Assembly: GCA_002709525.1 (NCBI GenBank)
Contig: PARE01000027.1
Location: 9,403 to 73,402, forward strand
Length of the DNA stretch: 64,000 nucleotides
Direction of reading: 5' to 3'
Source of the DNA: Magnetovibrio sp.
Lineage (GTDB): Bacteria; Pseudomonadota; Alphaproteobacteria; Rhodospirillales; Casp-alpha2
Both the position numbers and the translations under genes were made by a program. How positions within the stretch are numbered: position 1 is the stretch's first letter; every line of letters starts with the position of its first letter. This document shows positions 43,469 to 58,805 of the stretch, one piece after another. The notes beneath the pieces are model-generated. The model was not told the DNA's origin. It made no database searches and was given only the letters and a program-made list of their open reading frames with translations.

Positions 43469-44608
43469 TTAGTCATTAACGGGTTCTGCGGAAAGCATTT
43501 CGACGCTTATCGCCTGATCCGGCTCAATATCGGCAATGGCGAACTTTCCAACAACTGAGCTCATCATGGATCCAGGTAGGCCATCGGCGGGCCGTTTCAT
43601 ACCAAGCATGACGCTCTCGATACGTTCGCCCTTAGCAATCGCCTGATCAGCAACGATGCTACGTCGGGCACTATCGCGAGCCGCCTGTTCTGCTTCAATC
43701 ACTTCGATCCGAGCATCGCCCAGAACAACCTCGGCAATGCGGATGTTTTCAATCATATCCGTCAAATTCTGGGGGTTCACCGAAAAGAAGTGGCCCGATC
43801 CCGTCATCGTGCGGTCGAGCGTGTAGTGCTTCTCAATAAGGTGGGCACCAAGTGCGACTGCGAGAGCCGGGATCACCATGTGATCGTCAGGCTCCGTATG
43901 ATCAGAGAGCCCGATCACCATCCAGGGATAGCGCTCCTTCAGAGCTGAGACGCGCCGCAGATTGGCCGCGGGATTTGGCGTTGGATAACTGAGCGTGCAA
44001 GCTAGCAGGATGATATCAAAGTTTCCTGCGTCATAAAGAACGTCAATCGCAGCGTCGATCTCTTCGGTCGTAGAGCCGCCCGTAGACAGGACAATCGGCT
44101 TACCCTTCTCGGCCACATGCTTCAGCAAACGGTGATCGGGCAGATCGCACGATGCAATCTTAAACAATGGCATACCAAGATCGTTGAGCATGTCAGCGTT
44201 GTCGGTATCAAACGGGGTGGAAAACGGCAAGATACCTTTCGCGTTCGCGTCGGCGAAGATAGTCCGATATTCATCGGCACCCAGGCGATCAAGGCGCGAG
44301 TAATACTCGAGTTGGGATGTTTCCTTGCCATTCCAATAAAGGGTTGCGTTAGCTCTAACCAACTTTTCGGCCTTGTAGGTCTGAAACTTGATCGCTGATG
44401 CGCCAGCCTTAACAGCGTGATCCGTCATCTTGATCGCCGTTTCTACATCGCACATGTGATTACACGCAGCTTCCGCGACGACGTACGTATTCTCACCGTC
44501 GCCAACCATCGTTCCGTTCACATTGACTAAGCGCTTACCATCATGGCGCGCCAACATCTTGTTGATTTGTGTTTCAAATTTGTCGAAGAGTGTGTCCGCC
44601 ATTTTCAA
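43469..44608 (-). CDS. NeuB-family nonulosonic acid synthase (NeuB/PseI/LegI-like, with SAF domain)
   Basis: YVVAEAACNHMCDVETAIKMTDHAVKAGASAIKFQTY, IGLSDHT and the C-terminal SAF-like segment IAKGERIESVMLGMKRP. Confidence 0.8.
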   Translation of the reverse strand: MKMADTLFDKFETQINKMLARHDGKRLVNVNGTMVGDGENTYVVAEAACNHMCDVETAIKMTDHAVKAGASAIKFQTYKAEKLVRANATLYWNGKETSQLEYYSRLDRLGADEYRTIFADANAKGILPFSTPFDTDNADMLNDLGMPLFKIASCDLPDHRLLKHVAEKGKPIVLSTGGSTTEEIDAAIDVLYDAGNFDIILLACTLSYPTPNPAANLRRVSALKERYPWMVIGLSDHTEPDDHMVIPALAVALGAHLIEKHYTLDRTMTGSGHFFSVNPQNLTDMIENIRIAEVVLGDARIEVIEAEQAARDSARRSIVADQAIAKGERIESVMLGMKRPADGLPGSMMSSVVGKFAIADIEPDQAISVEMLSAEPVND

Positions 44609-44653
44609 TCTCCATGCGAATAGTCATATTGGGCCGAGGGGGCTCGGCGAAAG

Positions 44654-45574
44654 TTAAACGGTCCAAGGGAAAGCCGTTCCCATAAAACCAACCATTGTTC
44701 GTCTTAAATGAAATAAGTCACTTTGCTCGTCATTCCTCCCATCCTCGGCACTTGGGCAGCACACGATTCCCCAATGTTTTAAATGAGAGATCACCTGCTC
44801 ATTGTAATCGGTATGTCGGCCTTCAGGATAAGAGAAATGGGTGATGGTCCGGCCCAAATTCTTCTCGAGCAACGACATGCAGCGATCCACATCCTTATGC
44901 ATCCCTTCGACGGAAAGGCGCGACAAGATGTTATGGTCGTGAGAGTGGCCCCCAATTTCGAAAAGTGGATGGCTATCAAGCTCTTGTGTTTGAGCCCAGG
45001 AAATCTTTCGGTAATTTGCCGCAGCATCGACAGACGGCGTGACGGCCGTTTCTAGTTTTAATGCAGCAAGAATGCGCTCCTTGTCAGCAGCGATGGCTTC
45101 TTTGCAGACGCCTTTGATCTTGATAGTAGCGTGAATTCTGTCGTCATCCGATTGGAGGGGAAAAGAGTTCGGAAGCCTGGAGTCGGCCGAAGACAAATCA
45201 ATCTCATTTATTTCCGATCGGTTGATACAGTCTTCTATCTCGTCGACCCAGAACATCCGATCGGATTCAACGAACCCGGTAGAGAAATAAAACATTGCCG
45301 GCACATCAAAATCATCGAGAACCGGCGCGGCAACGGCGTGGTTGTTTTCAAAACCGTCGTCGAAAGTGACCGCGAAAGCTCTCGGCGGGAAGGGTCTCCT
45401 CTCGCAAACGTGGTATCGCACCTCTTCCATCGAGAGCGGAATACCTATGCGTTTAGCTGTTGAGATCTGATCGCGGAATGTATCTATATGAATATGCTTT
45501 CCGGAAAAGTTCTCGATCCCGGGGCTCTCGGCATCGCTGACGCCGTGATAAAGAAAGATTGTCAAATCACTCAT
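44654..45574 (-). CDS. polysaccharide deacetylase (CE4)
   Basis: FAVTFDDGFENNHAVAAPVLDDFDVPAMFYF and EIGGHSHDH. I chose the ATG at 45574, which is preceded by GGAGGCAGG 8 nt upstream. The ORF track extends to 45727, overlapping the formyltransferase. Confidence 0.75.
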   Translation of the reverse strand: MSDLTIFLYHGVSDAESPGIENFSGKHIHIDTFRDQISTAKRIGIPLSMEEVRYHVCERRPFPPRAFAVTFDDGFENNHAVAAPVLDDFDVPAMFYFSTGFVESDRMFWVDEIEDCINRSEINEIDLSSADSRLPNSFPLQSDDDRIHATIKIKGVCKEAIAADKERILAALKLETAVTPSVDAAANYRKISWAQTQELDSHPLFEIGGHSHDHNILSRLSVEGMHKDVDRCMSLLEKNLGRTITHFSYPEGRHTDYNEQVISHLKHWGIVCCPSAEDGRNDEQSDLFHLRRTMVGFMGTAFPWTV

Positions 45575-45602
45575 GAAACAACCTGCCTCCTGATTGTTCC
45601 CC

Positions 45603-46403
45603 CTAGGCCGCACCCAAATGCTGGGTATAAGCATGGAACTGCTGAATCGCGCGGCGGCGCTTGAAATACGGGATGAATGAATAGTACCCAGCGGCGGCAC
45701 GGTCCCAAGGTCTCTCAATAACTTCAACCCCGGTGCTTATTTTTCTTATTAGATCCACAATCACATTCGTGGCGAAAACTGTCGTGTGATAACGAATGTG
45801 ATGCGCTTTCATCCCTGCGGTAACATCGACACGGCCCTGATAGATTATTGGGCCCGTATCAAGCTCTGGCTCAAGCCTATGCACTGTACAGCCAATATTA
45901 TCAAAGTCCTGGAAATACATGGCCCACAAATCAGAGTCCAATCCGCGATAAGGCGGCAAGAGGCCTCGGTGTATATTCACCATCATGGCGTTGGTTGCCA
46001 ACACGTTCTCGGCGATCTTTCCAGTACCGAACGAGACCACAAGGTCCGGTTTGAAGGCCTGGAGGGCAGCCAGACAATCCGCATTATTGACGCTTGGAAA
46101 CCTAACATAGGATGCATCACCCGTAAATTCTCGCGCCACGGTACCTTCAAAAAAACGTGCCTCATACGCCTCTTGATTACGGCCAAACGTTGGGTAACTC
46201 TTGACTAGGTAGGGATTATCCCAAAAAGACGCCAGGGATTTTCGCGCCTTAATCCATTTCCAATAAAGCGCCTGAAAATCCAATCCAGCCGTTTCGAGAA
46301 CCACGAAGAGCTCAGTGTGTGGTGCTAAACAATTGACAAAATAGCGGTGGTGTGTGGTGTCCGTCGTCAATACCGCGCATTTCAGCTTACTCATGAGGAC
46401 CAC
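45603..46403 (-). CDS. formyltransferase-domain protein (Fmt/ArnA-N/PurN-like)
   Basis: PDLVVSFGTGKI...MVNIHRGLLPPYRGLDSDLWAMY matches the N-x-H...LP-x-YRG formyltransferase motif. Confidence 0.75.
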   Translation of the reverse strand: MVLMSKLKCAVLTTDTTHHRYFVNCLAPHTELFVVLETAGLDFQALYWKWIKARKSLASFWDNPYLVKSYPTFGRNQEAYEARFFEGTVAREFTGDASYVRFPSVNNADCLAALQAFKPDLVVSFGTGKIAENVLATNAMMVNIHRGLLPPYRGLDSDLWAMYFQDFDNIGCTVHRLEPELDTGPIIYQGRVDVTAGMKAHHIRYHTTVFATNVIVDLIRKISTGVEVIERPWDRAAAGYYSFIPYFKRRRAIQQFHAYTQHLGAA

Positions 46404-47765
46404 TTACCGCCCAAGAAAGTCTTCAAGCAAATTCTCAGCGAGCCAGAATTCAAACTCTGAATTTATCTTTACACTCTCTTCCGGCAGCATGGTGAGATGG
46501 CCAACTGTCTCACCGATCAAGCTGCCGCCGCGCACAACGTTCGTTCGGGCGAGGTGGACGGCACTATTGTCCTTATAGATTGCTTCTTTCTCTAAACGAA
46601 CACCGGTTGCGAAATCGATTGGTCGCAGTCCATTTCGGTCGTGCTGATAACACGGCGATAGTTCCTCAGAGACAGAAATTACGGAATCGACATCAAAAAT
46701 CTGCATGACGTTGACCGCCCGGTCGATATGTTGGGCACGTCGCAGCGGTGAATTGATGTTAAGAACGCAAATAGCATCAGGAATATAGTTTTGTTCGTGC
46801 TCCATAGTGTCCAGGACATGCCCAATTGAGTCGCAAATATTCACAATTTCAATTTCAGGCGGCCGCTCAATGACCTCGATGTTTTCGTGCTTTTCTGCCT
46901 GCGCAATGGCATCAGGGTGACTAGTCGACATGACAATCCTATCTAGCAGGTCTGATCGGAGCGCTTCGTTCAGCGTGTAAGAGATCAGTGCCTGTCCTGC
47001 CAAGACAGCGTTGGGTTCATTCTTTGGATAGGGAGAGTTTCGCGCAACCGGAATGATCCCCAAAACCTGTGGCGTATGGCCAGTAAGCTCGCGTTCCGAA
47101 AAATTCTTTTGTATCTCGTAACGCGTCTCCAGCAATCGCTTGGCGTTGGTGGTGATACTGCCGTGGTGCTGACGATAATAAAAGAGCGGCACATTGACGT
47201 TGTACGGCCGAAAATTTTGAATAAAGCGGATCCACAAATCATAACCGTCCTGACAATTATACTCCTCGCTATAGCCATCCAATTGTATCAGGACTTCACG
47301 TCGGAACATCGTGCAGGCACCATGAGCCGGTAAGTCAAGAAGCTCAACTTCATCCCCGATCTTCTTGCGCCGGATCAATTCGAGAATATTCGCGTTGTCG
47401 TCGATGAGAAAGTAATCAGGATATACTAAGCCAACATCGTTCCGGGTATCGAGAATATTGGAGAGGACAAGCAAAGCGTTCTCATCAAGATAGTCATCGG
47501 CGTCGAGACGCATAACATATTTTCCGCCGGCTAAGCGTAACGCAATGTTGTTGGATGCATTTAGCCCCTTGTTTTCTTGGCGTACGATTTTAATTTTAGA
47601 GTGAGAGGCATACTTCTCAAGAACATCACCTGTGTGGTCGGTAGAGCCATCATCGATCACGATCAGTTCCCAGTCATTCATGGTCTGACTGATGACGCTT
47701 TCAATCGCACGATCAAGATAGTTGCCGTAGTTATAGCACGGTGAATACACAGTCACTTTTGTCAT
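46404..47765 (-). CDS. fusion protein: N-terminal GT2 glycosyltransferase + C-terminal CMP-ulosonic-acid (NeuA-like) cytidylyltransferase domain
   Basis: N-terminus: VTVYSPCYNYGNYLDRAIESV, ELIVIDDGSTDHT and RLDADDYL. From about residue 235: LGIIPVARNSPYPKNEP..AGQALISYTLNEA, which resembles IIPARxxSKxxPxKN of CTP_transf_3 but is divergent. Confidence 0.6.
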   Translation of the reverse strand: MTKVTVYSPCYNYGNYLDRAIESVISQTMNDWELIVIDDGSTDHTGDVLEKYASHSKIKIVRQENKGLNASNNIALRLAGGKYVMRLDADDYLDENALLVLSNILDTRNDVGLVYPDYFLIDDNANILELIRRKKIGDEVELLDLPAHGACTMFRREVLIQLDGYSEEYNCQDGYDLWIRFIQNFRPYNVNVPLFYYRQHHGSITTNAKRLLETRYEIQKNFSERELTGHTPQVLGIIPVARNSPYPKNEPNAVLAGQALISYTLNEALRSDLLDRIVMSTSHPDAIAQAEKHENIEVIERPPEIEIVNICDSIGHVLDTMEHEQNYIPDAICVLNINSPLRRAQHIDRAVNVMQIFDVDSVISVSEELSPCYQHDRNGLRPIDFATGVRLEKEAIYKDNSAVHLARTNVVRGGSLIGETVGHLTMLPEESVKINSEFEFWLAENLLEDFLGR

Positions 47766-47788
47766 GTTGATGAGCGTTTCAATTGATC

Positions 47789-48841
47789 TTAGTTCACAAA
47801 TTTCTTGATTAGTTGCGATAGCCGGTCAGTTGAGCCATTAAAAATATTCAATGATGGGTGCCTTGAAGACTCTGATTGATCCTCCTCTATTACCTGCTCG
47901 ATTTCAGTGCGCAGTTCAGGTGCTGCCATCAGAACCGGCCCATAGGGAAACGGTATATTTGAGTCAGATTGGTTTTGTGACGAGGGCCAGCCAACAATTG
48001 CAACTCGTCTGCCCGATAACGCAGCTTCAATTAAAGCCATCGAGTCAAAGCCCAGAATAAAGTCATATTTGTACAAAGCGTCTGACCAGTCTCCATTACC
48101 ATCAATCGAAACGTCGATTGGCAATTCGGGCACCCCTGCATCCTTGGGATGCGGCCGAAAGAACAACTCAGTCCTCCGGCCACCAACTGTGCTCGGGACA
48201 TTGGCGGCAATATCCTGAACAAGGTTTCGACCGCTGATTGATTGCGCGAAAACGCTACGGAATGACCCATCACGGGCTTCAGGTTGTGAAACAATGACTA
48301 TCTTGCAGGTATCACCGACCCCCAGTGGCCGCCAGACACAACGCTCAAGGTGCGGGTGACCTACTACATACAACTTCGCTTTTGAATACAAATCACTCAC
48401 CCGACCCACGCAGGTATCATCGATGCAGGCCAAATGCTCGGGCATGTATGACGGCGCATTATGTTCATCCAAGAATCGCGTATATCCCTTCCAGTGATCG
48501 AGAACGCCAAGCGAAGGCACGCCCACGTTGCGTGCCGCCTCAATTAGCCGTGCATTTGTCAAATCATGTTCGCGAGCGCTGGTGGTGCAAACAAGATGCG
48601 AGATTCTCTCGCCGCCTAAATAATTTTGAAGTGATTGTCGGTCCGCTGGCAGGGTATCAAATACCGCAGCCGCTTTTTCAAATGGAATACCGCCGTCCAA
48701 AAAGAGCTGTTCGCTGATTGGATGCACAATTAACCGCCATCGTGCTTTTTGTGACGCCATGATGAAAGCCATGACGCTTGGAAGAAGAAATCGGCTTCCG
48801 CCCAAATCTTGAAAATAAAATATGATGGAATTCCGGGGCAC
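47789..48841 (-). CDS. orphan 350-aa protein, GT-B-like (PseG-like hydrolase or transferase candidate)
   Basis: ELFFRPHPKD ... YDFILGFDSMALIEAALSGRRVAIVG resembles the C-terminal half of GT-B / HP-motif enzymes. No named family recognised. Confidence 0.4.
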   Translation of the reverse strand: MPRNSIIFYFQDLGGSRFLLPSVMAFIMASQKARWRLIVHPISEQLFLDGGIPFEKAAAVFDTLPADRQSLQNYLGGERISHLVCTTSAREHDLTNARLIEAARNVGVPSLGVLDHWKGYTRFLDEHNAPSYMPEHLACIDDTCVGRVSDLYSKAKLYVVGHPHLERCVWRPLGVGDTCKIVIVSQPEARDGSFRSVFAQSISGRNLVQDIAANVPSTVGGRRTELFFRPHPKDAGVPELPIDVSIDGNGDWSDALYKYDFILGFDSMALIEAALSGRRVAIVGWPSSQNQSDSNIPFPYGPVLMAAPELRTEIEQVIEEDQSESSRHPSLNIFNGSTDRLSQLIKKFVN

Positions 48842-48846
48842 CGATT

Positions 48847-50178
48847 TCAGGCTTCCTTTGAAAGACGTTCCTGATTATCTGCAACCTTATGCACGGCCTC
48901 CACAAATTCCTTAACTTCTCTCGCGCCGTTTGGAAACTTACATATGTCGGTAGTAACCAGTTCAAGATCGTACAGCCGCTCTGCGGTCGGACAGAGTCCG
49001 GCGGCATAGTCGGGCTCTCCCGTGTAATGGGGGCAGCGAAACGGACAACCCGTATCACCGTAGGCGATCTGGTTCTGATACATGGGATACCTGTAGATAG
49101 GTATCTCGTAGCCGGGGGAAATGGCCACGCCTTCGGCCTGCATGGCACGCACGAAAACATCCCGGTGGTATCCGGCCTCTTCTGGGAGGAACCGCATAGT
49201 AAAGAAGTAGTATGAATGGCTACAGTTCTGGCGTACGAACGGTGGTATCAAAAATTTGTAAGGTTGAAGCGCGGCCGTAAGGCTGTTTGCCAGATCTCTT
49301 CGAACCTCGAGCAACTTGTCTAGTTTTTCAATCTGGCTCATGCCGATAGCAGCTTCAATCTCGGTCATCCGGTAGTTCCAGCCCACGATGTTCTCGAGAT
49401 CGGGCAGATCATCATCAGTCCATTTTGCGAGGACCACCTCACCGTGATTCCGGATCAACTGCATCCGCTGTGCATATTTATCATTATTGGTGACGGCAAC
49501 CCCCCCCTCCCCGGTTTGGATGGCTTTGTGATAGTTCAGGCTCAAGACCCCAATGTCGCCGATCGTCCCAGCAAATTTGCCATTGATAGCGGCCCCCGGG
49601 GATTGTGCATTATCCTCAATCAGCGCCAGCTCATGCTCGCTGGAAATCTCTTTCAACGCTTCCAGCCGAGCCGGGTGACCAAACAGATTGACGACAATAA
49701 TAGCCTTGGTGCGCGGCGTGATCTTCTTCTCAACCTCGTTCGGGTCAAGGCAGAACGTCTCGTCCTCGATATCGGCAAACACGGGAACAGCATTAGCCAT
49801 GACCACGCAAGTAGCGCTGGCCGACATGGACGTCGGCGGAACGATCACTTCATCGCCTGGCCCCACGCCAACAGCTGCGACAGCACTGTGAAGGGCTGAG
49901 GTGGCGGAATTGAATGAAACGGCATGCGTCGTGCCAAAGTACGTCCGGAACCCGTCCTCCAGCCTTCGTACATTAGGGCCACCCAAAAATCGATCGCCTG
50001 GCCGGCCGGAAAATCCGGAAAGCTCCTTTCGGCGCAATGTGGCAATGACCGCCTCTTCCTCTTCCCGCCCAATCATGGTGTCATGAGTGGGGTAGGGAAT
50101 ATCCCTAACACGCGGTCCCCCATACATCGCAAGCTCCGTCATTATCGACCCTTTCTTGTCAGTTCCGAAACCGACCAC
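48847..50178 (-). CDS. DegT/DnrJ/EryC1/StrS-family PLP sugar aminotransferase
   Basis: GDEVIVPPTSMSASA, LIEDNAQSPGA and SLNYHKAIQTGEGGVAV (PLP lysine). An alternative ATG start lies at 50142. Confidence 0.85.
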   Translation of the reverse strand: MVGFGTDKKGSIMTELAMYGGPRVRDIPYPTHDTMIGREEEEAVIATLRRKELSGFSGRPGDRFLGGPNVRRLEDGFRTYFGTTHAVSFNSATSALHSAVAAVGVGPGDEVIVPPTSMSASATCVVMANAVPVFADIEDETFCLDPNEVEKKITPRTKAIIVVNLFGHPARLEALKEISSEHELALIEDNAQSPGAAINGKFAGTIGDIGVLSLNYHKAIQTGEGGVAVTNNDKYAQRMQLIRNHGEVVLAKWTDDDLPDLENIVGWNYRMTEIEAAIGMSQIEKLDKLLEVRRDLANSLTAALQPYKFLIPPFVRQNCSHSYYFFTMRFLPEEAGYHRDVFVRAMQAEGVAISPGYEIPIYRYPMYQNQIAYGDTGCPFRCPHYTGEPDYAAGLCPTAERLYDLELVTTDICKFPNGAREVKEFVEAVHKVADNQERLSKEA

Positions 50179-50239
50179 GCAACGGTCCTCGGAGATCTGT
50201 TGGAGATTTTAGTTGTTCTCATCGGGAAACCGGCGCGCA

Positions 50240-51376
50240 CTACTTAAAGCTGGCCGCAGGTCCTTTGCGCTGCGACTTCAATATTTCCTCAAACTCGTCT
50301 TCGCTAAACCCCGTGATCTCAAGATAATAGTCCAGCATATCAGGTCGCTTTGGATCATATTCCTTGATCAGCTCAAACGCCTCCTCCCGGGTCAGTAGCC
50401 CCGCACGGACATCTTGGCTGGCGTGATCCGTGGCGCGTCCAAACCCTCGCTTCAAGTACTTGGCGTAATCGTGGACACCCGGCATACGGCACTCAACACT
50501 TTTGTATCTCTTGTATGTACCTTCGACGTTGTCTTCTTCCCACCCGTACTCTTCCTTGAGAAACTCGGTTTGACGTTCACCATCCCAGAAAATGTATTCG
50601 CCAAGGAAAATTCCATGAAAGCCCATTGCATCCAATTGTTCCTGGAGAGGAACTCGAAACGGATACATATCGCGACGCTCGATGTTGTCGCATAGAAGAT
50701 CGTCGATCCGCGCCTTTGTCGAAACCCGATCGAAGTAGGAGCGGTCGAACTTGACCTCATCGCTGTAGGAATTCTTGTTCCCGGCTTCAGCCGACGACTC
50801 ACCCCAGACCATTAACGGAATGCCGTACATGACGGCCACCTGCAAAGGAAAGGCGTTCACTCCTGCGTGACAATGCCAGCACGAGTCGCCAATGGCATGG
50901 AGCGATTGTCGCGCAACCTTATTCACCAAACCACGGGCCGGTGTAAACATCAAATGGTCAACGCTCAGCTTATCAAGAATATTCCACAAGTTTCGCTTGC
51001 CGGTTGGGCTGTACCAGTTATGACTGAAGGTAACGGCAAGCGGCTTCATACCGTATTTCTTGACCAAGACGTGGAGCTGGAACGCGCTGTCTTTGCCGCC
51101 ACTGATAGGGACAATGCAATCATAGTTGTCGCCCGCCTTGGCCCTATAGTGTTCGAGCGTTTCGTGCAACAAGCGTTCACGCGCAGCCCAATCGATATGC
51201 ATCTTTTGCTCAGAACTTTGACAGGCCCGGCAAACGCCGAGTTCATCGTAGACCGTGCCCTCTGAGGTCTCCGGCATGCAGCAGCGGACGCAATATCTCA
51301 CATTTTCATGCGGGGGCTTCCCCCAATCCGATGATCTTTGCAGTGCTTCTTTCTTCGTCATGGTGAATCCATTCAT
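50240..51376 (-). CDS. N-acetyl sugar amidotransferase (WbpG/PseA/LfnA-like PP-loop enzyme)
   Basis: CVRCCMPETSEGTVYDELGVCRACQ (Zn ribbon) and YDCIVPISGGKDSAFQ (PP-loop SGGKDS). Confidence 0.8.
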   Translation of the reverse strand: MNGFTMTKKEALQRSSDWGKPPHENVRYCVRCCMPETSEGTVYDELGVCRACQSSEQKMHIDWAARERLLHETLEHYRAKAGDNYDCIVPISGGKDSAFQLHVLVKKYGMKPLAVTFSHNWYSPTGKRNLWNILDKLSVDHLMFTPARGLVNKVARQSLHAIGDSCWHCHAGVNAFPLQVAVMYGIPLMVWGESSAEAGNKNSYSDEVKFDRSYFDRVSTKARIDDLLCDNIERRDMYPFRVPLQEQLDAMGFHGIFLGEYIFWDGERQTEFLKEEYGWEEDNVEGTYKRYKSVECRMPGVHDYAKYLKRGFGRATDHASQDVRAGLLTREEAFELIKEYDPKRPDMLDYYLEITGFSEDEFEEILKSQRKGPAASFK

Positions 51377-51389
51377 CGCAGAGGTTCAT

Positions 51390-52751
51390 TCAGTCAAAGA
51401 TAGGTTCAACAACAGCGGCCGGCGCCACGGCGCCCTCATCTTCAAATTCGGCCAACAGATCTAGCAAATCCAGGTCGTGATACTTCGGTGCTATAATTTG
51501 AACGCCAAGAGGAAGTTTTTCAGGCCCAAAGCCAATTGGCAGATTAACACTCGGAACGCCACAGAAGGTCCATATAAGGCAATTGTCAGGACGATCCGGC
51601 GCATCGCGACCTTCCGGGGCTTCCCCAGCCGCAGCCAACGTGATCACAGCGTCATATTTAGAAAGCCAGGAATCCATTTCTTGGCTCAAGCGTGTTTGCG
51701 CCGCTAAACATTCGCGAAACTCATCCGCTGTTATACTCCGGCCCGCGTTTGTCATTTCGCGGAATGATCGACTAATTTTGTCGGGTTGCTCAATTTCGTG
51801 GGCAAAGTAATATGACAGAGATTTAGTGTAGATGATCTGGTGTATGTCAAAAATTTCACTAAACGCCGCCGGCAAATCATATTCGATACAGTCAATATTT
51901 GGCAATCCGCCAAGGACGTTGGCAAACGTATGCAGACTTTCTTGGGCATAGCTCTCCGCATCCGACCATTTGGGCCCCTTGACCATGGCAATCCGCTTTG
52001 CCGCATCGCGAGATTTCCGAGGCCGTTTGTCGACGCACTTGTGGATGAACGGATGATTAGCTCCGCTTACACGCGTGGCGTTGAGGGTGAGCTTTAGATC
52101 ACATACGGTTCGGGCGAAAAAGCTAACGTGATCGAGCGTATCAGCGGTCTTTAATACTCCGGTCCTGGGAACTAATCCAAAAGAGGGTTTCATGCCGTAG
52201 ACACCGAGATAACTTGCCGGTCGGATAGTTGATCCCGCGGTTTGAGTTCCCAGGCTGACTGGAACCATACCGGTCGCAACGGCGACGGCTGATGCCCCTG
52301 ATGATGTGCCCGCGGACAGGGTCTCACCGTAGGGATTTAGAGTTTCACCAGGATGATGAACGGCGAACTCGGCAGTGACGGTCTTGCCGGCTAAGCAGGC
52401 CCCCGCATACCGCATCATAAAAACAGCGCGTGCATCGTTGCCCGGAGAAAATCCTGACCAGAGCTCACTCCCCATTTCCGTGTTAAGCGTTTCAGTGTTA
52501 AAAATATCCTTTACGCCGAACAGGGCCCCTGCAAGCTGCGGGAACTCCCCCGTTTCACGGCGACGGGCCTCCAGATGATCAAACTGCTCTAACAAGAGAT
52601 CTGGTTCAAACGCCGCCCATGCCTTGAGTCTTGGCTCAATAACCTTGATCCGTTCGATACAGGACTCCGCGATTTCACGTGGGCTTGCCTTCCCAGAACG
52701 CACCGCCCGAATGGCATCCGTTGCACTGAGGTCATAGAGTTCAGGTTTCAA
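51390..52751 (-). CDS. amidase-signature (GatA-like) amidohydrolase
   Basis: FGVKDIF (catalytic Lys) and AGTSSGASAVAVATGMVPVSLGTQTAGSTIRPASYLGVYGMKPSFG, which is the AS signature with cis-Ser and the nucleophile Ser retained. Confidence 0.85.
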   Translation of the reverse strand: MKPELYDLSATDAIRAVRSGKASPREIAESCIERIKVIEPRLKAWAAFEPDLLLEQFDHLEARRRETGEFPQLAGALFGVKDIFNTETLNTEMGSELWSGFSPGNDARAVFMMRYAGACLAGKTVTAEFAVHHPGETLNPYGETLSAGTSSGASAVAVATGMVPVSLGTQTAGSTIRPASYLGVYGMKPSFGLVPRTGVLKTADTLDHVSFFARTVCDLKLTLNATRVSGANHPFIHKCVDKRPRKSRDAAKRIAMVKGPKWSDAESYAQESLHTFANVLGGLPNIDCIEYDLPAAFSEIFDIHQIIYTKSLSYYFAHEIEQPDKISRSFREMTNAGRSITADEFRECLAAQTRLSQEMDSWLSKYDAVITLAAAGEAPEGRDAPDRPDNCLIWTFCGVPSVNLPIGFGPEKLPLGVQIIAPKYHDLDLLDLLAEFEDEGAVAPAAVVEPIFD

Positions 52752-52811
52752 ATTATCTGTATTCCAACTATTAATTGTCTAGCAGAAGCCTTGCCAGTGC
52801 CTTTGGTTCAA

Positions 52812-53801
52812 TCAGCCTGCGATTTGGTCGCAGATTTCGACAACACGACAGCCATCTTCAAGCGTGCAAGCCGGCGGCTCACCGGCATCCCGTTGCGCCA
52901 CAAGCTCACGGACGGCGGTCGGCAAACAGAATTGCCACGACGTTTCTTTCGTTTGCGACCCACCAAGAATGTGAAAGCTGCCAAATTTCGGCTCCGGGAC
53001 CCCTATTTCAGTCTGAACAATTTGACCGCGCTGGCGCAACGAAACCCGGCCATTCCGAAAGAAAATCTCAACGTCGAGAAACACGTAGGAAGCATCGGGC
53101 AAATGGTGAAAGTCAACAGCTAGGCCATTAGCAAACGTCAGGGCAAAGTCGTAACCGGGGTCGTCTGTATCTGCGCGCCCATGGCGGCGGAACGTTCGGA
53201 CTGATTGAGGTTCGCCGAAGAACCACCGGAACAAATCAATGAAATGCGATCCATTGACCCAAAGGCCCTTAGTATAACGGACACAGGCTGCAATCGGATG
53301 TCCCCATCGGCCGCTATCGATGTCTTCGCGTAGGTTTCGAATGCTATTATTCCAACGTCGATAATAATTAACGGCAACTTGCCGGCCCTCGGCTTGCGCA
53401 ACCATGCGCCTCGCTTCATCCCGGTTTTGGGAAATCGGCTTCTCTACAAAGATTGTCTCAATGCCAACATCCAACGCCGCCGCCAAAACTTGGCTGTGGG
53501 TGTTCGTCGGCGTACAAATGCTGGCAATGTCGATCGACTCTGCGCCAAACATCTCTTGGTAGTCGCGATATGTTGATGGGACCCCCCACTTTTGCTTGAA
53601 GTCCTCAAGATTTTGCACGTTCACGTCGGCAACCGCCGCCAGTACCGTTTCAGGGTGCAGCAGATAGGCGCCGGCATGGGTCATCGATCCCTGCGCGTCT
53701 TCGTTCCGCGCTGGCGGCACTCGATCATATCCACCACCAATGTTTCCACAGCCGACAATCGCCGCTCGCAAAGATGTCTCCCCTAACATGATGGGCGTCA
53801 C
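52812..53801 (-). CDS. Gfo/Idh/MocA-family oxidoreductase
   Basis: RAAIVGCGNIGGGY and FVEKPIS (EKP motif). GTG at 53801 overlaps the upstream stop (GTGA). An alternative ATG lies at 53789. Confidence 0.8.
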   Translation of the reverse strand: MTPIMLGETSLRAAIVGCGNIGGGYDRVPPARNEDAQGSMTHAGAYLLHPETVLAAVADVNVQNLEDFKQKWGVPSTYRDYQEMFGAESIDIASICTPTNTHSQVLAAALDVGIETIFVEKPISQNRDEARRMVAQAEGRQVAVNYYRRWNNSIRNLREDIDSGRWGHPIAACVRYTKGLWVNGSHFIDLFRWFFGEPQSVRTFRRHGRADTDDPGYDFALTFANGLAVDFHHLPDASYVFLDVEIFFRNGRVSLRQRGQIVQTEIGVPEPKFGSFHILGGSQTKETSWQFCLPTAVRELVAQRDAGEPPACTLEDGCRVVEICDQIAG

Positions 53802-54550
53802 TCCGCCCCCAGCAGGCTCAGAAGATTGGGTTTCTGTTCAAGGTACGCCATCAATTCCGGCAGGCTGAAGTCAGGCTTATCCGGATAAAGACCGGAAATT
53901 ATTTGCTCCAGGAACTGAAAATTCTTCAGGTAATTGACCGCGAAATTAATCTCGGGCCTGTGCAGTTTCTGCCAATGGCCCGTCGCCTCTATGAACCCTG
54001 TTTTGAAGCCGTTCTCTGGGACAAATAGAAACTCAGCTTCCGGAATATCGTCGCGAATATAGTCCGGAAAATCTATATAGCGTTCTGCTGCCTCAAGCTT
54101 GAATGCCTGAACCCGCACCCCCAGGGCAAACAGAGCTAGGTCCTCACGCTTCACATTATATTCGTCGGTAATCGACACAGCGCAGTCGAAATCATTTCTC
54201 GTCTGTAGTTCGACGACCTCATCAATCATTTCTGGATCCACGAGGGGATTGTCCCCAAGGATTTCCACGACCGTATCACAATCATAGGCCCGAGCTGCAC
54301 CACATAAGCGTGCCATGATATCTTGCAAAGGCCCGCGGTAACATCCGACGTCGGCGTTGGCCGCCCACTCGGCCAAGGGGTCATCGCTTCTCTCATCACT
54401 GGTCGTTACGACAATCTCATCGATACTTCTCGCGCGCCGAATGCGTTCCACCAGGTAATCAATCATTGGTCGGCCATTAATCGGCATGATGTTTTTGGCC
54501 GGCAATCGAGAAGAACTCAATCGAGCAATGATGAACGCGCCGGTGGTCAT
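53798..54550 (-). CDS. cytidylyltransferase, SpsF/COG1861-like (CMP-nonulosonic acid synthetase candidate)
   Basis: AFIIARLSSSRLPAKNIMPINGRPMIDYLVERI, IVVTTSDERSDDPL and CYRGPLQDIMAR. Confidence 0.7.
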   Translation of the reverse strand: MTTGAFIIARLSSSRLPAKNIMPINGRPMIDYLVERIRRARSIDEIVVTTSDERSDDPLAEWAANADVGCYRGPLQDIMARLCGAARAYDCDTVVEILGDNPLVDPEMIDEVVELQTRNDFDCAVSITDEYNVKREDLALFALGVRVQAFKLEAAERYIDFPDYIRDDIPEAEFLFVPENGFKTGFIEATGHWQKLHRPEINFAVNYLKNFQFLEQIISGLYPDKPDFSLPELMAYLEQKPNLLSLLGAE

Positions 54551-55108
54551 TTAGGCCTGCCCCCTGAATGTTGCCATGTAAACCAAATCAACCTCCTTTC
54601 CCTCCCACATGTATTCGCGCCGGCGCACACCGTCGCTGATCATTCCGGAATTCTTCATGATCTTTAACATGCCGGCATTCGTCGCCATGGTGCCTGCCCA
54701 TACTTTCCTCAGACCGACCTCATCCAAAAGAAATGTCATCCCCCCGTTCCAGGCTTCCAGCCCATATCCATGCCCCCAAAGATCCTCCTCGCCAAGCATG
54801 ATAGTGAGATTAGCGGTGGAATTCGGACGGTCTACATAGGCCACCATGTTTCCGAAATGCCGATAGCTGTCATCTTGCAACTCTAACGCCCAGAAAAAGC
54901 TATCCGATCCTACGAAAGTCTTGAGAAATGCTTCGCAGCTCGCGCGATCATGACTGCGGCTCCGGTGCTTGCTAAAGCGAGTGACGCTGGGGTCATTTAG
55001 CCAACCGATATAGGTGTCCGTGATGTGGTTCGCGGTAAACGGAACTAACTGAAGTCGCGACGTTAAAATATGCCGTTGCGACAAACGTTCGATATCTGGT
55101 TCTGCCAT
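54551..55108 (-). CDS. GNAT N-acetyltransferase (RimJ/RimL / PseH-like)
   Basis: RLQLVPFTANHITDTYIGWLNDPSVTRFS and WGHGYGLEAWNG..FLLDEVGLRKVWAGT. Confidence 0.75.
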   Translation of the reverse strand: MAEPDIERLSQRHILTSRLQLVPFTANHITDTYIGWLNDPSVTRFSKHRSRSHDRASCEAFLKTFVGSDSFFWALELQDDSYRHFGNMVAYVDRPNSTANLTIMLGEEDLWGHGYGLEAWNGGMTFLLDEVGLRKVWAGTMATNAGMLKIMKNSGMISDGVRRREYMWEGKEVDLVYMATFRGQA

Positions 55109-57025
55109 TCAGCGATTTTTTTCGGCGCCAGCCACGGAAACATTCATTGCCAACGAATTTTTCTCCTTGCTGCCGGTGCGCTCTCCGTTGACTATATTTT
55201 TGATAATCGCGTTTCGGTTCGCATCATAGGGATAGGACATTTCAGCCCAGACCTTTTTAAAGTCGACGTCAACGGGCTGTCCGTTGACGAACCGGTTAGT
55301 AAAATCCGCGAGCTTAGCCCCATCGTCAAACCGCATCTCTGAACCAAATTTATCGTATATATTTTTGTCTACTCCGAGAAGGTCCATAAATACGACCGGC
55401 GTTTCGATAACCGCACAGTCCGCAGCGATCCCCGATCCGTCCAGTGTTATTACTAAGTCGGCCGAGAGCAAGTATTCGACCGTTGTAATATTTGGGTCGA
55501 TCAAGAAATCTAGCTCACGGCTTGGCACTCTGGCCGAGAACGCAGCAGCATCAATGTAATTTTTTGGCCGGATCGCTAACCGCGTCTTTAGCGTGTCGAC
55601 TTGGTTTAAAAAATCAAACAGCATTTCCCCGTTCGTAAACACCGAGTCAAAACCAGCAAGATCTGTGAAGCCAGGAAGCGTTATGATAACGGTTTTTCTG
55701 CCTTTCTGGGACGGCTTATCAAGGCCACGCGCACGCAGGGTACTATCGATACGATTGTAACCGTAGGGAACAACAGACAGATGTCCCCAATACGGTCTAT
55801 AAAGATCATGAATAAAGCGGCTCCAAACTAGGACAGCATCAGCACAAATGAAAGCGAGGCTCGGCAAGGCGTATACACCATTCCCAGCCGAATGGTGAAC
55901 AATCAGGCTTTTCCGCCCACGCGCACGCAGTAACCATGTCCTCACAAAATGACGTTCCGAGTAATCGTCAAGTGAGAGAAACGCATCGCAATCGATGTTC
56001 TCGCTATAAACAAATTCACGGCAATCCGCCGTAATCAGCCGCCAATAAATTGAAATATCAAGCCAGGTTTTTAAACGGGACGCACACGCAATATAAATCT
56101 TCAACGCCCGCAGCAGCATGCCTATAAAAAGCATTGGCGACATGGTAAAGGCACGGAAGTCCTCGCACCCAATTCCCGCCGCGTCGAGGTCGGAAATATA
56201 AGTTGCCGCAATCTTATCACCTGGATCCCATTGGTCCGTCAAAAAGGCCGCGTTGGTCTCATTGTCAAAAAAATAATCGTCGACTGTGAAACTTTTAAGT
56301 AATTCGCCCGCGTAACCAAACCCCGTATTGTGAACCAACAAGCTGCGGCGGCGCGGCTGAGGGCAACGCGTTTTCCATCTAAAACTGGTCGCTGTCTTGA
56401 TAACCGATACCAAAGTCATTAAAGCCGTCAGGAACGGGCTGGCGATCAAGGCCCCAAACCGGGAGCGCCAAAACTTTGCGAGATCAGACCCCGCATAAAT
56501 TCCGAACGGATCGGAGTCGGTAATTACGCAAACCTTGTCACGTCGGTTCTTCATATCGCGCACTATAAATGATTGGATGCAGGCCTTTTCCAAGCCACAT
56601 TTCTTCACAAACAACCCTGCGTCTTCTTGACGCACGCCGGAACTTGCTGCGATGGCTTCAACTAACGGTGCCTGATCGTTGAGTTTATGACCAAATACCT
56701 TTGGAACGGTGCATGGATTATCAAACATGTAATCGTATAGATCTAGACGGCGACGGGTGAGGGACTTACGGCAGAGAAGATACGCCAGACGCCGGCAAAA
56801 CGGATAAAAAATCTCGCCGTTATGGCAGTTGTCGCTGGTCACAAAGACGGATTTGGATGCCCGGCGGATTTTACTAGCATGAACCAAAACCGTCCAAGGC
56901 AACAAATGGTCAAACACAATTGTAAGCCCGCCCGATCCAACACACCTTGAAGAGGACTTTGACAACGTCACAGTCTTAGCGGTGCTCACCATCTGCGTGT
57001 TACTCACGCACCATCGCAGTTTCAT
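55109..57025 (-). CDS. orphan protein of about 630 aa, GT-B-like C-terminal half
   Basis: KTVIITLPGF...RLAIRPKNY...VEYLLSADLVITLDGSGIAADCAVIETPVVFMD has the same architecture as 37304-38950. The likely start is the ATG at 56992. Confidence 0.45.
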   Translation of the reverse strand: MKLRWCVSNTQMVSTAKTVTLSKSSSRCVGSGGLTIVFDHLLPWTVLVHASKIRRASKSVFVTSDNCHNGEIFYPFCRRLAYLLCRKSLTRRRLDLYDYMFDNPCTVPKVFGHKLNDQAPLVEAIAASSGVRQEDAGLFVKKCGLEKACIQSFIVRDMKNRRDKVCVITDSDPFGIYAGSDLAKFWRSRFGALIASPFLTALMTLVSVIKTATSFRWKTRCPQPRRRSLLVHNTGFGYAGELLKSFTVDDYFFDNETNAAFLTDQWDPGDKIAATYISDLDAAGIGCEDFRAFTMSPMLFIGMLLRALKIYIACASRLKTWLDISIYWRLITADCREFVYSENIDCDAFLSLDDYSERHFVRTWLLRARGRKSLIVHHSAGNGVYALPSLAFICADAVLVWSRFIHDLYRPYWGHLSVVPYGYNRIDSTLRARGLDKPSQKGRKTVIITLPGFTDLAGFDSVFTNGEMLFDFLNQVDTLKTRLAIRPKNYIDAAAFSARVPSRELDFLIDPNITTVEYLLSADLVITLDGSGIAADCAVIETPVVFMDLLGVDKNIYDKFGSEMRFDDGAKLADFTNRFVNGQPVDVDFKKVWAEMSYPYDANRNAIIKNIVNGERTGSKEKNSLAMNVSVAGAEKNR

Positions 57026-58805
57026 TCATCAGCAAGACATCTAGGTCGCTTCTCTCGAACGTGCTGATGGCGTCTTCAGGCGTACAAACAATAGGCTCCC
57101 CATGTAGATTGAACGACGTGTTTAGCAATGCGCCTGTGCCAGTCTCACCCTCAAAGGCCTTAATGATATCATAATAGCCCGGGTTGCGATCACGGGCCAA
57201 AACCTGTGGTCGCGCCGTCATATCGGAACCGTGAATTGCTCCCCCCAGTTCCTCTTTTCCAGCATCGGTAGTTTTGGCGGAGATCATCATATATGCATAA
57301 GAATCCAAGTCCACAAGATCTGCCAGGTAATCGTTTGCACGCTCAGCTATGACCACGGGCGCGAACGGCATCCAGAAATCTCGGTATTTGATTTGGCGAT
57401 TGATTTTATCAACAGTGCTCGGATCACGTGGGCTCGCAAGGATGGAGCGATTGCCAAGAGCGCGGGCACCGAACTCCATCCGGCCAGAACACCGGGATAT
57501 GACCTTGCCTTCCGCTAAGAACTTGGCCACCTTTGTCACGCTTACGTCATCCATGACCGTGAATTTCTGATTGGCGCCAGTCTGCAAAATAGCATTTTGG
57601 ATATCGCCATTGGCGAATTCGGGACCAACATAGGCGTTCCGGATTGGCCGCAGATGTCGATAGGCATCCTGTCCAGATGCAGCCTCGCCCATGTAGCAAG
57701 CGCCGACGCACAACGTATCGTCCGTCGGGCTTGGGGCAACATAAAACTCCTCCAGATCTGGGTTCTCCGCCAGCAGCATGTTGAGCTTTACGTTCATTGC
57801 GACCCCTCCGGCAAATACGGCATGGCGCGATCGGTACTTCGCCTGCATTTCCCGAAACCATAGCTGGACCGAATCTTCGACCATCCTCTGGGCCGCTGCT
57901 GCGATCCCATCAAACCGATGGCCCTCGAACGCCGTGGTAAGGTGAAAGTAATTATCCTTAGGTCGGCGATCCGGTGCGTAAAGCAGCATGTCACCATCAA
58001 CCTCAAACATACCGTCGAAGACCTGGTAACTCTTTCGGGCTTCGCGGTCTGTCGCGTATGGAGCAAGTCCCATGACCTTAAATTCATGCTCTCCGGTTTT
58101 CATTCCAAGTAGCAAAGTGACTTCGCGATATATACGTCCGATATCGACGCTGTTCGACCGGGCCAATTCTTCAACACGCCCACCCATGTATCGAAACAGA
58201 GTGCTTGTCGTGCTGTCGCCACCGCCGTCGAGGGTGTAGATCAAGGTGTTATCGTTACGGATGGGACTAGCAAACAAAGCATAATAAGCATGGCATGCGT
58301 GATGATCATAAAAGACGATTCTATCGGCTGCCTCTGTGCCCAAGTGCCGACGGGCACCGTCCAATCGGATAGACCTGGATACTTCCATATCTCGAATGAA
58401 ATCGTAGTCAGCGTCGATCTCAGAGAAATCGTAATAGTGATCCTGATTGCTTAGGCGTGTATCTTTGGCCAACTCGTGGAATATAGTTCGATCCTCAATG
58501 CCGTCATATAACCTCGGTTTCCAGTAGCGATGATGCACTGCCAGCCATTGGTCGCTGGTGAACGAAGCAATGGATTTTAGCTTCGTGTGAAAGGCGTTCA
58601 GGTTCATTGTCGCAAAAGCAACCTGATCGATATCATCGGCAGACAAGCTTGCGCTCGACAGACAGTATTCGATGGCTTGCTTTGGATACCCATAATCATT
58701 CTTTAGGCGGGTGAACCGCTCCTCCGCCGCAAGTGCGACGAGTTCGCCATCCACCATTAAACAAGCGGATGCACAGTGGCCGTCATGAATACCCAAGATA
58801 ATCAT
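57000..58805 (-). CDS. carbamoyltransferase (NodU/CmcH family), full length
   Basis: MIILGIHDGHCASACL, YDHHACHAYYA, FKVMGLAPY and C-terminal NTSFNLHGEPIVCTPEDA. Confidence 0.9.
   Translation of the reverse strand: MIILGIHDGHCASACLMVDGELVALAAEERFTRLKNDYGYPKQAIEYCLSSASLSADDIDQVAFATMNLNAFHTKLKSIASFTSDQWLAVHHRYWKPRLYDGIEDRTIFHELAKDTRLSNQDHYYDFSEIDADYDFIRDMEVSRSIRLDGARRHLGTEAADRIVFYDHHACHAYYALFASPIRNDNTLIYTLDGGGDSTTSTLFRYMGGRVEELARSNSVDIGRIYREVTLLLGMKTGEHEFKVMGLAPYATDREARKSYQVFDGMFEVDGDMLLYAPDRRPKDNYFHLTTAFEGHRFDGIAAAAQRMVEDSVQLWFREMQAKYRSRHAVFAGGVAMNVKLNMLLAENPDLEEFYVAPSPTDDTLCVGACYMGEAASGQDAYRHLRPIRNAYVGPEFANGDIQNAILQTGANQKFTVMDDVSVTKVAKFLAEGKVISRCSGRMEFGARALGNRSILASPRDPSTVDKINRQIKYRDFWMPFAPVVIAERANDYLADLVDLDSYAYMMISAKTTDAGKEELGGAIHGSDMTARPQVLARDRNPGYYDIIKAFEGETGTGALLNTSFNLHGEPIVCTPEDAISTFERSDLDVLLMNETAMVRE

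What the first reader, a model, noticed from the sequence alone, without database searches (positions are those of the whole stretch)
50240..52751. WbpG-type sugar amidotransferase paired with an amidase-signature (GatA-like) enzyme instead of HisH/HisF paralogues
PP-loop N-acetyl sugar amidotransferases (WbpG/PseA/LfnA type, which form acetamidino groups) are classically encoded next to hisH/hisF-like genes thought to supply ammonia. No HisH/HisF-like gene is present here. Instead, 13 nt upstream (5') of the amidotransferase, lies an amidase-signature protein with an intact Lys / cis-Ser / Ser triad. This is the fold GatA uses as a glutaminase to feed ammonia to GatB. My hypothesis is that this is an alternative ammonia-donor subunit for acetamidino-sugar formation. 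Alternatively, the amidase may hydrolyse or install an amide on the sugar acid.
Basis: inference. Interest (0 to 1): 0.65.

Follow-up and report, generated by a model that had tools for sequence, protein, structure and literature searches.

The report
Sugar amidotransferase with amidase ammonia-donor partner
A sugar-modifying enzyme that normally relies on two histidine-pathway-like helper proteins for ammonia is here paired with an amidase instead, and the same pair is adjacent or fused into one protein in dozens of unrelated bacteria and archaea, which points to an undescribed way of feeding ammonia to this enzyme family.

Summary
Window 50240-51376(-) is a TIGR03573/WbuX N-acetyl sugar amidotransferase. 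Window 51390-52751(-) is an amidase-signature protein with an intact Lys81/cis-Ser150/Ser174 triad. The gap between them is 13 nt. No HisH/HisF-like gene lies in the 64 kb window.

The pairing is not chance:
- In 80 loci from more than 15 phyla of bacteria and archaea that encode this amidase subfamily, all 76 with enough flanking sequence have a WbuX gene of one tight clade directly adjacent.
- In six of those loci the two are one ~870-aa ORF, and about 70 fused protein clusters exist in the database.
- Pairwise distances of the two proteins co-vary (r=0.85).
- HisH/HisF genes appear only in loci that also carry a second, divergent "classical" WbuX, and they sit beside that copy or within a few kb of it.

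This is non-orthologous displacement of the ammonia-donor module. The most likely mechanism is that the amidase hydrolyses a small amide and passes NH3 to the PP-loop enzyme, which converts an acetamido group to an acetamidino group.

It lacks GatA's glutamine-recognition elements, so the amide donor is unknown. No paper in the searched library describes this pairing. It is a new variant of a known kind, supported by comparative genomics only.

The parts
51390..52751 (-). Amidase-signature protein (453 aa), malonamidase-E2-like. Proposed ammonia-generating subunit.
   Evidence: PF01425 at 205 bits; no NCBIfam equivalog reached its cutoff. Triad K81/S150/S174. Closest solved structure is MAE2 (profile 280 bits, TM 0.87), then GatA. 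AF2 model has pLDDT 90.1. Metatranscriptome contigs cover 51312-52250.
50240..51376 (-). WbuX/NASAT-type PP-loop N-acetyl sugar amidotransferase (378 aa) of the amidase-linked clade. Proposed synthetase subunit.
   Evidence: TIGR03573 at 353.9 bits against cutoff 203.2. Homologous to LpNASAT 8WEX at E=2e-46. PP-loop SGGKDS at 92-97 and the Cys4 Zn motif are conserved. 52-71% identical to the WbuX next to the amidase in 76 loci.
54551..55108 (-). GNAT N-acetyltransferase, likely maker of the acetamido group that WbuX converts.
   Evidence: PF13302. A homolog is present in 59 of 80 loci and lies immediately upstream of WbuX in 47. GNAT-WbuX fusion proteins exist.
53798..54550 (-). CMP-sugar type cytidylyltransferase of the conserved cassette.
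   Evidence: PF02348 CTP_transf_3. Homolog present in 33 of 80 loci.
52812..53801 (-). Gfo/Idh/MocA oxidoreductase of the conserved cassette.
   Evidence: PF01408. Homolog present in 55 of 80 loci, usually directly before DegT.
48847..50178 (-). DegT/PseC-like PLP aminotransferase of the conserved cassette.
   Evidence: PF01041 at 303 bits. Homolog present in 61 of 80 loci.
43469..44608 (-). NeuB-family nonulosonate synthase, which places the cassette in a nonulosonic-acid pathway.
   Evidence: PF03102 at 242 bits; TIGR03569 and TIGR03586 below their cutoffs. Homolog present in 43 of 80 loci.

Best explanation
The two genes encode the two halves of an amidotransferase. The amidase-signature protein hydrolyses a small amide donor on its Ser174 nucleophile and releases ammonia. 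The identity of the donor is unknown. The ammonia passes directly to the PP-loop enzyme. That enzyme uses ATP to activate the carbonyl of an N-acetyl group on an amino sugar and replaces the oxygen with NH, giving an acetamidino group.

In this WbuX clade the amidase takes the place of the HisH-like glutaminase plus HisF-like barrel used by classical WbuX, WbpG, PseA and AglX systems.

The sugar is probably a CMP-linked nonulosonic-acid derivative made by the surrounding cassette of NeuB, cytidylyltransferase, Gfo/Idh/MocA oxidoreductase, DegT aminotransferase and GNAT.

Shown: gene identities, intact catalytic motifs, strict co-localisation, natural fusions, co-divergence, and complementary distribution with HisH/HisF.

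Inferred: ammonia donation, channelling, the acetamidino product, and the sugar.
For: 1. 76 of 80 loci that encode this amidase subfamily have a WbuX at 52-71% identity directly adjacent. In the other 4 the amidase starts within 300 nt of a contig end. The gene order is WbuX then amidase in 73 loci and the reverse in 3 loci plus the window.

2. From the WbuX side, 4 of 4 sampled clade members have the amidase immediately downstream, including a GNAT-fused form and a tandem form.

3. Natural fusions exist. Six loci carry single ORFs of 862-889 aa. About 70 fused clusters at 90% identity are in the protein database, including one from cultured Solidesulfovibrio alcoholivorans. That fusion has TIGR03573 at residues 13-352 and an amidase domain at 420-856. 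Its AF2 model has pLDDT 88.6 and pTM 0.84 over 875 residues.

4. Pairwise distances of the two proteins correlate at r=0.85, and 0 of 2000 Mantel permutations reached that value.

5. Displacement pattern. HisH/HisF occur only in loci L022, L024, L025, L069, L073, L088 and L094, which also hold a divergent classical WbuX at 27-40% identity beside HisH/HisF or within a few kb. Classical plasmid loci show WbuX-HisH-HisF.

6. The amidase-linked WbuX proteins form a tight clade with 45-99% pairwise identity, against at most 40% to classical copies.

7. The catalytic triad is invariant in standalone and fused forms.

8. The nearest outgroup amidases, at 33-38% identity, sit in catabolic ABC-transporter contexts without WbuX.

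9. An RNA contig spans the gene junction.

10. From established knowledge: PP-loop synthetases are known to recruit unrelated glutaminase modules, namely class I in GMP synthetase, Ntn in asparagine synthetase B and nitrilase-like in NAD synthetase.
Against: - There is no biochemical or genetic evidence for any member of this pair.
- The amidase lacks GatA's glutamine-recognition elements, so there is no positive evidence that it uses glutamine or any amino-acid amide.
- Some classical WbuX genes have no adjacent partner at all, so a dedicated donor is not obligatory for the family.
- Adjacency and fusion show coupling, not which step the amidase performs.
Confidence: 0.65

Rival explanations
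1. The amidase acts on the sugar or glycan in a step before or after WbuX, not as an ammonia source. For example, it could remove or exchange an N-acyl group, or transfer an acyl group as the amidase ClbL does.
For: Amidase-signature enzymes hydrolyse very diverse amides, and ClbL-type members act as transacylases; ClbL appears among the structural matches. Consecutive pathway enzymes can be fused, as with GNAT-WbuX. No glutamine-binding signature is present.
Against: This reading does not explain why HisH/HisF are missing exactly where the amidase is present, or why they reappear only with a second classical WbuX. The closest relative, MAE2, acts on a small free amide and releases ammonia, not on a bulky glycoside. 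The linkage is stricter than for any other cassette gene: 76 of 76, against 33-61 of 80.
Confidence: 0.17
2. The pair is an ammonia-dependent amidotransferase, but this WbuX clade amidates a different group. For example, it could convert a carboxylate to a carboxamide on the nonulosonate rather than an acetamido to an acetamidino group.
For: This clade is only 27-40% identical to classical WbuX proteins. No member has been characterised. PP-loop enzymes such as asparagine synthetase adenylate carboxylates (established knowledge).
Against: The protein scores 354 bits on TIGR03573, as high as classical members. GNAT acetyltransferases lie immediately upstream in 47 loci and are fused to WbuX in several proteins, which fits an N-acetyl substrate.
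Confidence: 0.12
3. The adjacency is incidental and the two enzymes are functionally unrelated.
For: None beyond the lack of experiments.
Against: 76 of 76 loci across more than 15 phyla show the adjacency, both gene orders occur, fusions arose in several lineages, and the two proteins co-diverge at r=0.85.
Confidence: 0.01

Closest known systems
WbuX/WbuY/WbuZ-type acetamidino systems (also WbpG with HisH2/HisF2, PseA with Cj1315c/Cj1314c, AglX/Y/Z)
   Same: The same PP-loop synthetase family, TIGR03573, with the Cys4 Zn site and the SGGxDS loop. The setting is also the same: surface-glycan clusters, often with nonulosonate genes.
   Different: The HisH-like class I glutaminase and the HisF-like barrel are both replaced by one amidase-signature protein. 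The WbuX belongs to a separate clade, at most 40% identical to classical copies.
Malonamidase E2 of Bradyrhizobium japonicum (PDB 1OCK and others)
   Same: It is the nearest solved relative: 30-31% identity over the full length, TM 0.87, and 280 bits against the family profile. It shares the compact architecture, the GTQTxGS motif and an Arg three residues after the nucleophile (R177 = MAE2 R158). It hydrolyses a small amide to an acid plus ammonia.
   Different: MAE2 is a free-standing enzyme with no synthetase partner. The family here has its own invariant residues, such as H132 and D389, where MAE2 has Arg. It is always coupled to WbuX.
GatA of GatCAB tRNA-dependent amidotransferase
   Same: Same fold and the same Ser-cisSer-Lys triad. 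It is the one established case of an amidase-signature enzyme that channels ammonia to a partner active site.
   Different: The protein scores 158.6 bits against the GatA cutoff of 481. The GatA segments that carry Y309 and D425 are absent and R358 is not conserved. No GatB or GatC partner is present.
Two-module PP-loop amidotransferases (GMP synthetase, NAD synthetase, asparagine synthetase B)
   Same: The logic is the same: an amide-hydrolysing module supplies NH3 to an ATP-pyrophosphatase module that adenylates the acceptor. The modules occur as separate subunits or as fused proteins.
   Different: Those enzymes use class I, nitrilase-like or Ntn glutaminase modules. An amidase-signature module with a PP-loop synthetase did not appear in any paper of the searched library.

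Membership tests
TIGR03573 / NASAT (N-acetyl sugar amidotransferase) | Family HMM score above the curated cutoff | tested here: met
   353.9 bits against 203.2.
TIGR03573 / NASAT (N-acetyl sugar amidotransferase) | PP-loop SGGxDS and tetracysteine CxxC...CxxC zinc motif (PMC10607449) | tested here: met
   S92-G-G-K-D-S97 and C29, C32, C49, C52 are conserved in both WbuX clades. Homology to 8WEX at E=2e-46.
TIGR03573 / NASAT (N-acetyl sugar amidotransferase) | Converts a sugar acetamido group to an acetamidino group | not testable with these tools
   Only context supports it: GNAT is adjacent or fused.
Classical WbuXYZ/AglXYZ three-gene acetamidino system | HisH-like glutaminase and HisF-like (WbuZ/AglZ) partner genes | tested here: not met
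   None in the 64 kb window. They are present only beside or within a few kb of classical WbuX paralogs in other loci.
Amidase signature family (PF01425) | Pfam score above cutoff and a Ser-cisSer-Lys triad | tested here: met
   205 bits against 27. K81/S150/S174 align with the triads of GatA and MAE2.
GatA (TIGR00132) | Equivalog HMM cutoff | tested here: not met
   158.6 bits against 481.1, and only the N-terminal two thirds align.
GatA (TIGR00132) | Glutamine-recognition residues Tyr309, Arg358 and Asp425 (S. aureus numbering; the roles of these residues are recalled from Nakamura et al. 2006, not re-checked here) | tested here: not met
   Y309 and D425 lie in GatA-specific insertions that are absent from this family and from MAE2. 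The R358 column is variable.
Malonamidase E2-like amidases | Compact architecture, GTQTxGS motif, and Arg at nucleophile+3 | tested here: met
   Full-length alignment and TM 0.87. R177 corresponds to MAE2 R158, and Q170 is shared. Substrate identity was not tested.
Two-module amidotransferase (amide hydrolase plus synthetase) | The two modules are physically coupled, as a complex or a fusion | tested here: met
   Natural fusions exist. pTM is 0.84 for the fused model. The two proteins co-diverge.
Two-module amidotransferase (amide hydrolase plus synthetase) | An intramolecular ammonia channel between the two active sites | not testable with these tools

The most novel reading that the evidence does not exclude
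A malonamidase-E2-like amidase-signature module is a fourth, independently recruited ammonia-delivery partner for PP-loop synthetases. It may use an amide donor other than glutamine. It forms part of a cassette of five to seven genes, spread by horizontal transfer across more than 15 phyla of bacteria and archaea, that builds a still undescribed acetamidino-bearing nonulosonic-acid derivative.
Probability: 0.35. Interest if true: 0.75.

Novelty: new variant of a known kind. Interest (0 to 1): 0.62.

Why it matters
Acetamidino groups put a positive charge on surface sugars of flagellins, O-antigens and archaeal N-glycans. They affect motility, serotype and immune recognition. Yet the enzymology of their formation is almost unstudied: the only structure paper says little is known and does not address the ammonia source (PMC10607449).

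A second, widespread donor system would have several uses:
1. It would allow correct annotation of hundreds of genes now labelled only 'amidase', and of fusions labelled only 'N-acetyl sugar amidotransferase'.
2. The natural single-chain fusions are a convenient object for reconstituting the reaction in vitro.
3. It would add a new module type to the catalogue of ammonia-channelling amidotransferases.
4. It flags a conserved cassette that probably makes an unknown nonulosonate derivative.

Tried and rejected
- GatA-likeness was rejected. Alignment with S. aureus GatA (sequence recovered), a GatA found by chance in L045, and MAE2 shows the family is MAE2-like and lacks GatA's substrate-recognition insertions.
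- Literature searches found nothing that links the two proteins: 'N-acetyl sugar amidotransferase'+amidase gave 0 papers, acetamidino+amidase gave 2 irrelevant papers, and all 10 papers that mention the enzyme name were listed. The AglX/Y/Z searches returned nothing, and Jones et al. 2012 is not held. Subscription journals are not covered.
- The plasmid collection holds no member of either the amidase subfamily or the amidase-linked WbuX clade. It holds only classical WbuX and generic amidases, which served as outgroups.
- The search of 50%-identity representatives with the fusion profile gave a continuum of amidase scores and collapsed the fusions into a few representatives, so it added no usable count.
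- The structure models could be used only for fold searches and confidence values. No coordinates were available, so no tunnel or interface was measured.
- An unbiased census of partner types over all TIGR03573 genes was not possible, because the locus tools return the closest relatives first.
Full report
**What is there.** Two minus-strand ORFs fill the reported interval.

- Window 51390-52751 encodes a 453-aa protein that matches Pfam Amidase (PF01425) at 205 bits. It reaches no curated NCBIfam cutoff. The best matches are AtzE at 183 bits and GatA at 159 bits, against cutoffs of 461 and 481.
- Thirteen nucleotides downstream, window 50240-51376 encodes a 378-aa protein that matches TIGR03573 'WbuX, N-acetyl sugar amidotransferase' at 353.9 bits, against a cutoff of 203.2.
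- This WbuX has the PP-loop SGGKDS at residues 92-97 and four cysteines in a CxxC...CxxC arrangement (C29, C32, C49, C52). The crystal-structure paper on the Legionella enzyme describes both as family hallmarks (PMC10607449). It aligns to that structure, 8WEX, at E=2e-46.
- The amidase triad K81/S150/S174 aligns with GatA K79/S154/S178 and with malonamidase E2 K62/S131/S155.
- The window is a Tara Oceans marine metagenome scaffold. Most of it (about 52 of 64 kb) is taken up by one long minus-strand run of surface-glycan biosynthesis genes.
- No HisH- or HisF-like gene was found. tblastn with the E. coli proteins found nothing, and the Pfam results show none.

**Is the pairing real?**

The amidase belongs to a large, well-separated subfamily. 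Its top 120 database relatives score 434-483 bits at 44-52% identity, far above its scores against any named amidase family.

I aligned 31 members (A1) and fetched 80 loci that encode this subfamily from species-representative genomes. These come from Chloroflexota, Omnitrophota, Gemmatimonadota, Planctomycetota, Desulfobacterota, Acidobacteriota, Verrucomicrobiota, Campylobacterota, Cyanobacteria, Bacteroidota/Ignavibacteria, Alpha-, Beta- and Gammaproteobacteria, Actinomycetota, Synergistota, several CPR groups, and the archaeal Nanoarchaeota, Halobacteriales and Methanomicrobiales.

- In 76 of the 80 loci a WbuX homolog at 52-71% identity lies directly beside the amidase. In the other four the amidase starts within 300 nt of the contig end.
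- The usual order is WbuX then amidase (73 loci). The window and three loci have the reverse order.
- From the other side, four WbuX proteins of this clade that I picked for long contigs all have the amidase immediately downstream. They include a GNAT-fused form and a tandem form.
- Pairwise distances of the two proteins across 70 pairs correlate at r=0.85, and 0 of 2000 permutations reached that value.
- The nearest outgroup amidases, at 33-38% identity on plasmids, sit next to ABC transporters in catabolic contexts without WbuX.

**Fusions.**

- In six loci there is no stop codon between the two genes: L034, L035, L044, L058, L061 and L069. Each gives a single ORF of 862-889 aa, with WbuX at the N-terminus and the amidase at the C-terminus.
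- A database search with one fusion found about 70 such clusters. One is from the cultured Solidesulfovibrio alcoholivorans and is annotated only as 'N-acetyl sugar amidotransferase'. That protein has TIGR03573 at residues 13-352 and an amidase domain at 420-856.
- An AlphaFold2 model of this 875-residue fusion, built on 59 fused sequences, has mean pLDDT 88.6 and pTM 0.84. That is high for a two-domain chain and suggests a defined mutual arrangement. No coordinates were available, so I could not look for a tunnel.

**Complementary distribution with HisH/HisF.**

- Among the 80 loci, HisH/HisF homologs occur only in L022, L024, L025, L069 and L073.
- These five are among the six loci that also contain a second WbuX gene; the sixth, L013, has only a partial extra WbuX match and no HisH/HisF. 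The second WbuX is only 27-40% identical to the amidase-linked clade, whereas members of that clade are 45-99% identical to each other.
- HisH lies next to, or within a few kb of, the divergent copy; HisF does too in four of the loci, though in L022 one of the two HisF genes sits about 4 kb away. The HisF-like proteins that I scanned against NCBIfam (from L022, L025, L069 and L073) score highly on the acetamidino-specific models TIGR03572 (WbuZ) and NF038364 (AglZ/HisF2), TIGR03572 being the top hit in two of the four and a close second to the general hisF model in the other two; all these scores fall below the curated cutoffs.
- S. alcoholivorans shows the same layout. A classical WbuX (40% identity), HisH and HisF come first. 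About 6 kb further on, GNAT is followed by the WbuX-amidase fusion. Locus L094 is arranged the same way.
- Classical plasmid loci show WbuX-HisH-HisF. A Sphingomonas transposon screen hit an adjacent WbuX, AglZ/HisF2 and HisH trio (PMC11340318).

Each WbuX clade therefore has its own partner type, even when both systems sit in one gene cluster. This is the classic pattern of non-orthologous displacement of one functional module.

**What kind of amidase is it?**

It is not GatA-like in any specific sense.

- The closest solved structure is malonamidase E2. It scores 280 bits against the family profile over the full length. Foldseek gives TM 0.87 at 30-31% identity.
- GatA aligns well only in the N-terminal two thirds (215 bits, TM 0.77-0.79).
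- I recovered the S. aureus GatA sequence with its numbering and aligned it with a bona fide GatA that happens to lie in L045, with MAE2, and with the family.
- The residues I recall as recognising glutamine in GatA are Tyr309, Arg358 and Asp425 (Nakamura et al. 2006, from memory). Tyr309 and Asp425 lie in GatA-specific insertions that are absent from both MAE2 and this family. The Arg358 column is variable.
- The family shares with MAE2 the GTQTxGS motif and an Arg three residues after the nucleophile (R177 = MAE2 R158). MAE2 R158 was the subject of a mutant structure, 1OBK.

The fold and the nearest relative fit hydrolysis of a small amide with release of ammonia. Which amide is open: glutamine, asparagine, a malonamate-like acid amide, or something else.

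**Context and likely acceptor.**

- The conserved neighbourhood is [NeuB]-[CMP-type cytidylyltransferase]-Gfo/Idh/MocA oxidoreductase-DegT aminotransferase-GNAT-WbuX-amidase.
- GNAT lies directly upstream of WbuX in 47 loci. GNAT-WbuX fusion proteins also exist.
- This matches the chemistry assigned to the family: an amino group is made, then acetylated, and the acetamido group is converted to acetamidino.
- The oxidise, transaminate, acetylate and amidinate order resembles the WbpB, WbpE, WbpD and WbpG steps of Pseudomonas O5 (my knowledge). Here, though, it sits beside nonulosonate synthase and CMP-activation genes. The exact sugar cannot be deduced.

**Expression.** A marine metatranscriptome run holds four contigs on 51312-52250, and one of them crosses the amidase/WbuX junction. 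This is weak support for co-transcription, because DNA carry-over cannot be excluded.

**Mechanism and confidence.**

I consider functional and physical coupling of the two proteins essentially established, at about 0.95.

I put the reading that the amidase is the ammonia-donating module of a two-part amidotransferase at about 0.65. It rests on three things:
1. the displacement pattern;
2. the fusion architecture, which is typical of amidotransferases;
3. the known habit of PP-loop synthetases of recruiting unrelated amide-hydrolase modules.

The main rival, that the amidase works on the sugar itself, is not excluded. It does not explain the complementary distribution with HisH/HisF.

**Novelty.**

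No paper in the searched library connects an amidase with this enzyme family. NCBIfam has no model for the amidase subfamily, and the fusions carry only the generic name.

I classify this as a new variant of a known kind. The synthetase family and the reaction logic are known. The donor module is new, and the system is widespread but unrecognised.

Noticed in passing
L001-L080; window 43469-55108: The conserved cassette is [NeuB]-[CTP_transf_3]-Gfo/Idh/MocA-DegT-GNAT-WbuX-amidase. Its logic (oxidise, transaminate, acetylate, amidinate) resembles WbpB/E/D/G, but it sits next to nonulosonate synthase and CMP-transferase genes. It may add an extra acetamidino-amino group to a CMP-nonulosonate that has not been described.
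   Followed up: partly
P0127, P0326 (600-650 aa); P0275, P0290, P0270, P0278 (1120-1180 aa): Tandem WbuX proteins occur. A degenerate WbuX-like domain that has lost the PP-loop (for example 'VDGSMSN' or 'LDDSWQS') is joined to a canonical WbuX. In the longer forms the order is WbuX, degenerate WbuX, amidase. This may be a built-in pseudo-dimer, since LpNASAT crystallises as a dimer.
   Followed up: partly
P0164, P0165, P0189, P0192, P0202, P0321; P0322; P0157: WbuX of the amidase-linked clade also occurs fused to a GNAT acetyltransferase, to a Formyl_trans_N domain, and to an AAA_33/APS-kinase-like domain. The formyltransferase fusion, together with the formyltransferase-like gene at window 45603-46403, hints at other N-acyl substrates.
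   Followed up: no
L022 (Chthoniobacterales MAG): One cluster carries three WbuX genes: one amidase-linked and two classical, with two hisH and two hisF genes in the locus. This suggests several acetamidino groups in one glycan.
   Followed up: partly
window 58855-60606 and 60736-62532: Two adjacent paralogous genes of about 590 aa carry only PF27859 (LIC12162), and their function is unknown. Next to them are a carbamoyltransferase (57000-58805), a FemAB/Acetyltransf_6-like gene (62529-63920) and a 638-aa ORF with no Pfam hit (55109-57025).
   Followed up: no
window 41851-43359: A B12-binding radical SAM enzyme lies inside the glycan cluster. SPASM-type radical SAM genes also flank the pair in L088 and L092. 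This suggests an unusual C-methylation or another radical modification of the sugar.
   Followed up: no
window 50240-51376: The database copy of this WbuX (P0121, 345 aa) starts 33 codons later than the ORF and would lose the first CxxC of the zinc site. Homologs align from about residue 15-25, so the longer start is the right one.
   Followed up: yes
WbuX residues 263-295 (window protein numbering): A cluster of residues is invariant in the amidase-linked clade but different in classical WbuX: F263, E267, R268, Q269, F272, Y277, W279, E281, K289, K292 and E295. These are candidates for a docking surface or for acceptor specificity.
   Followed up: no
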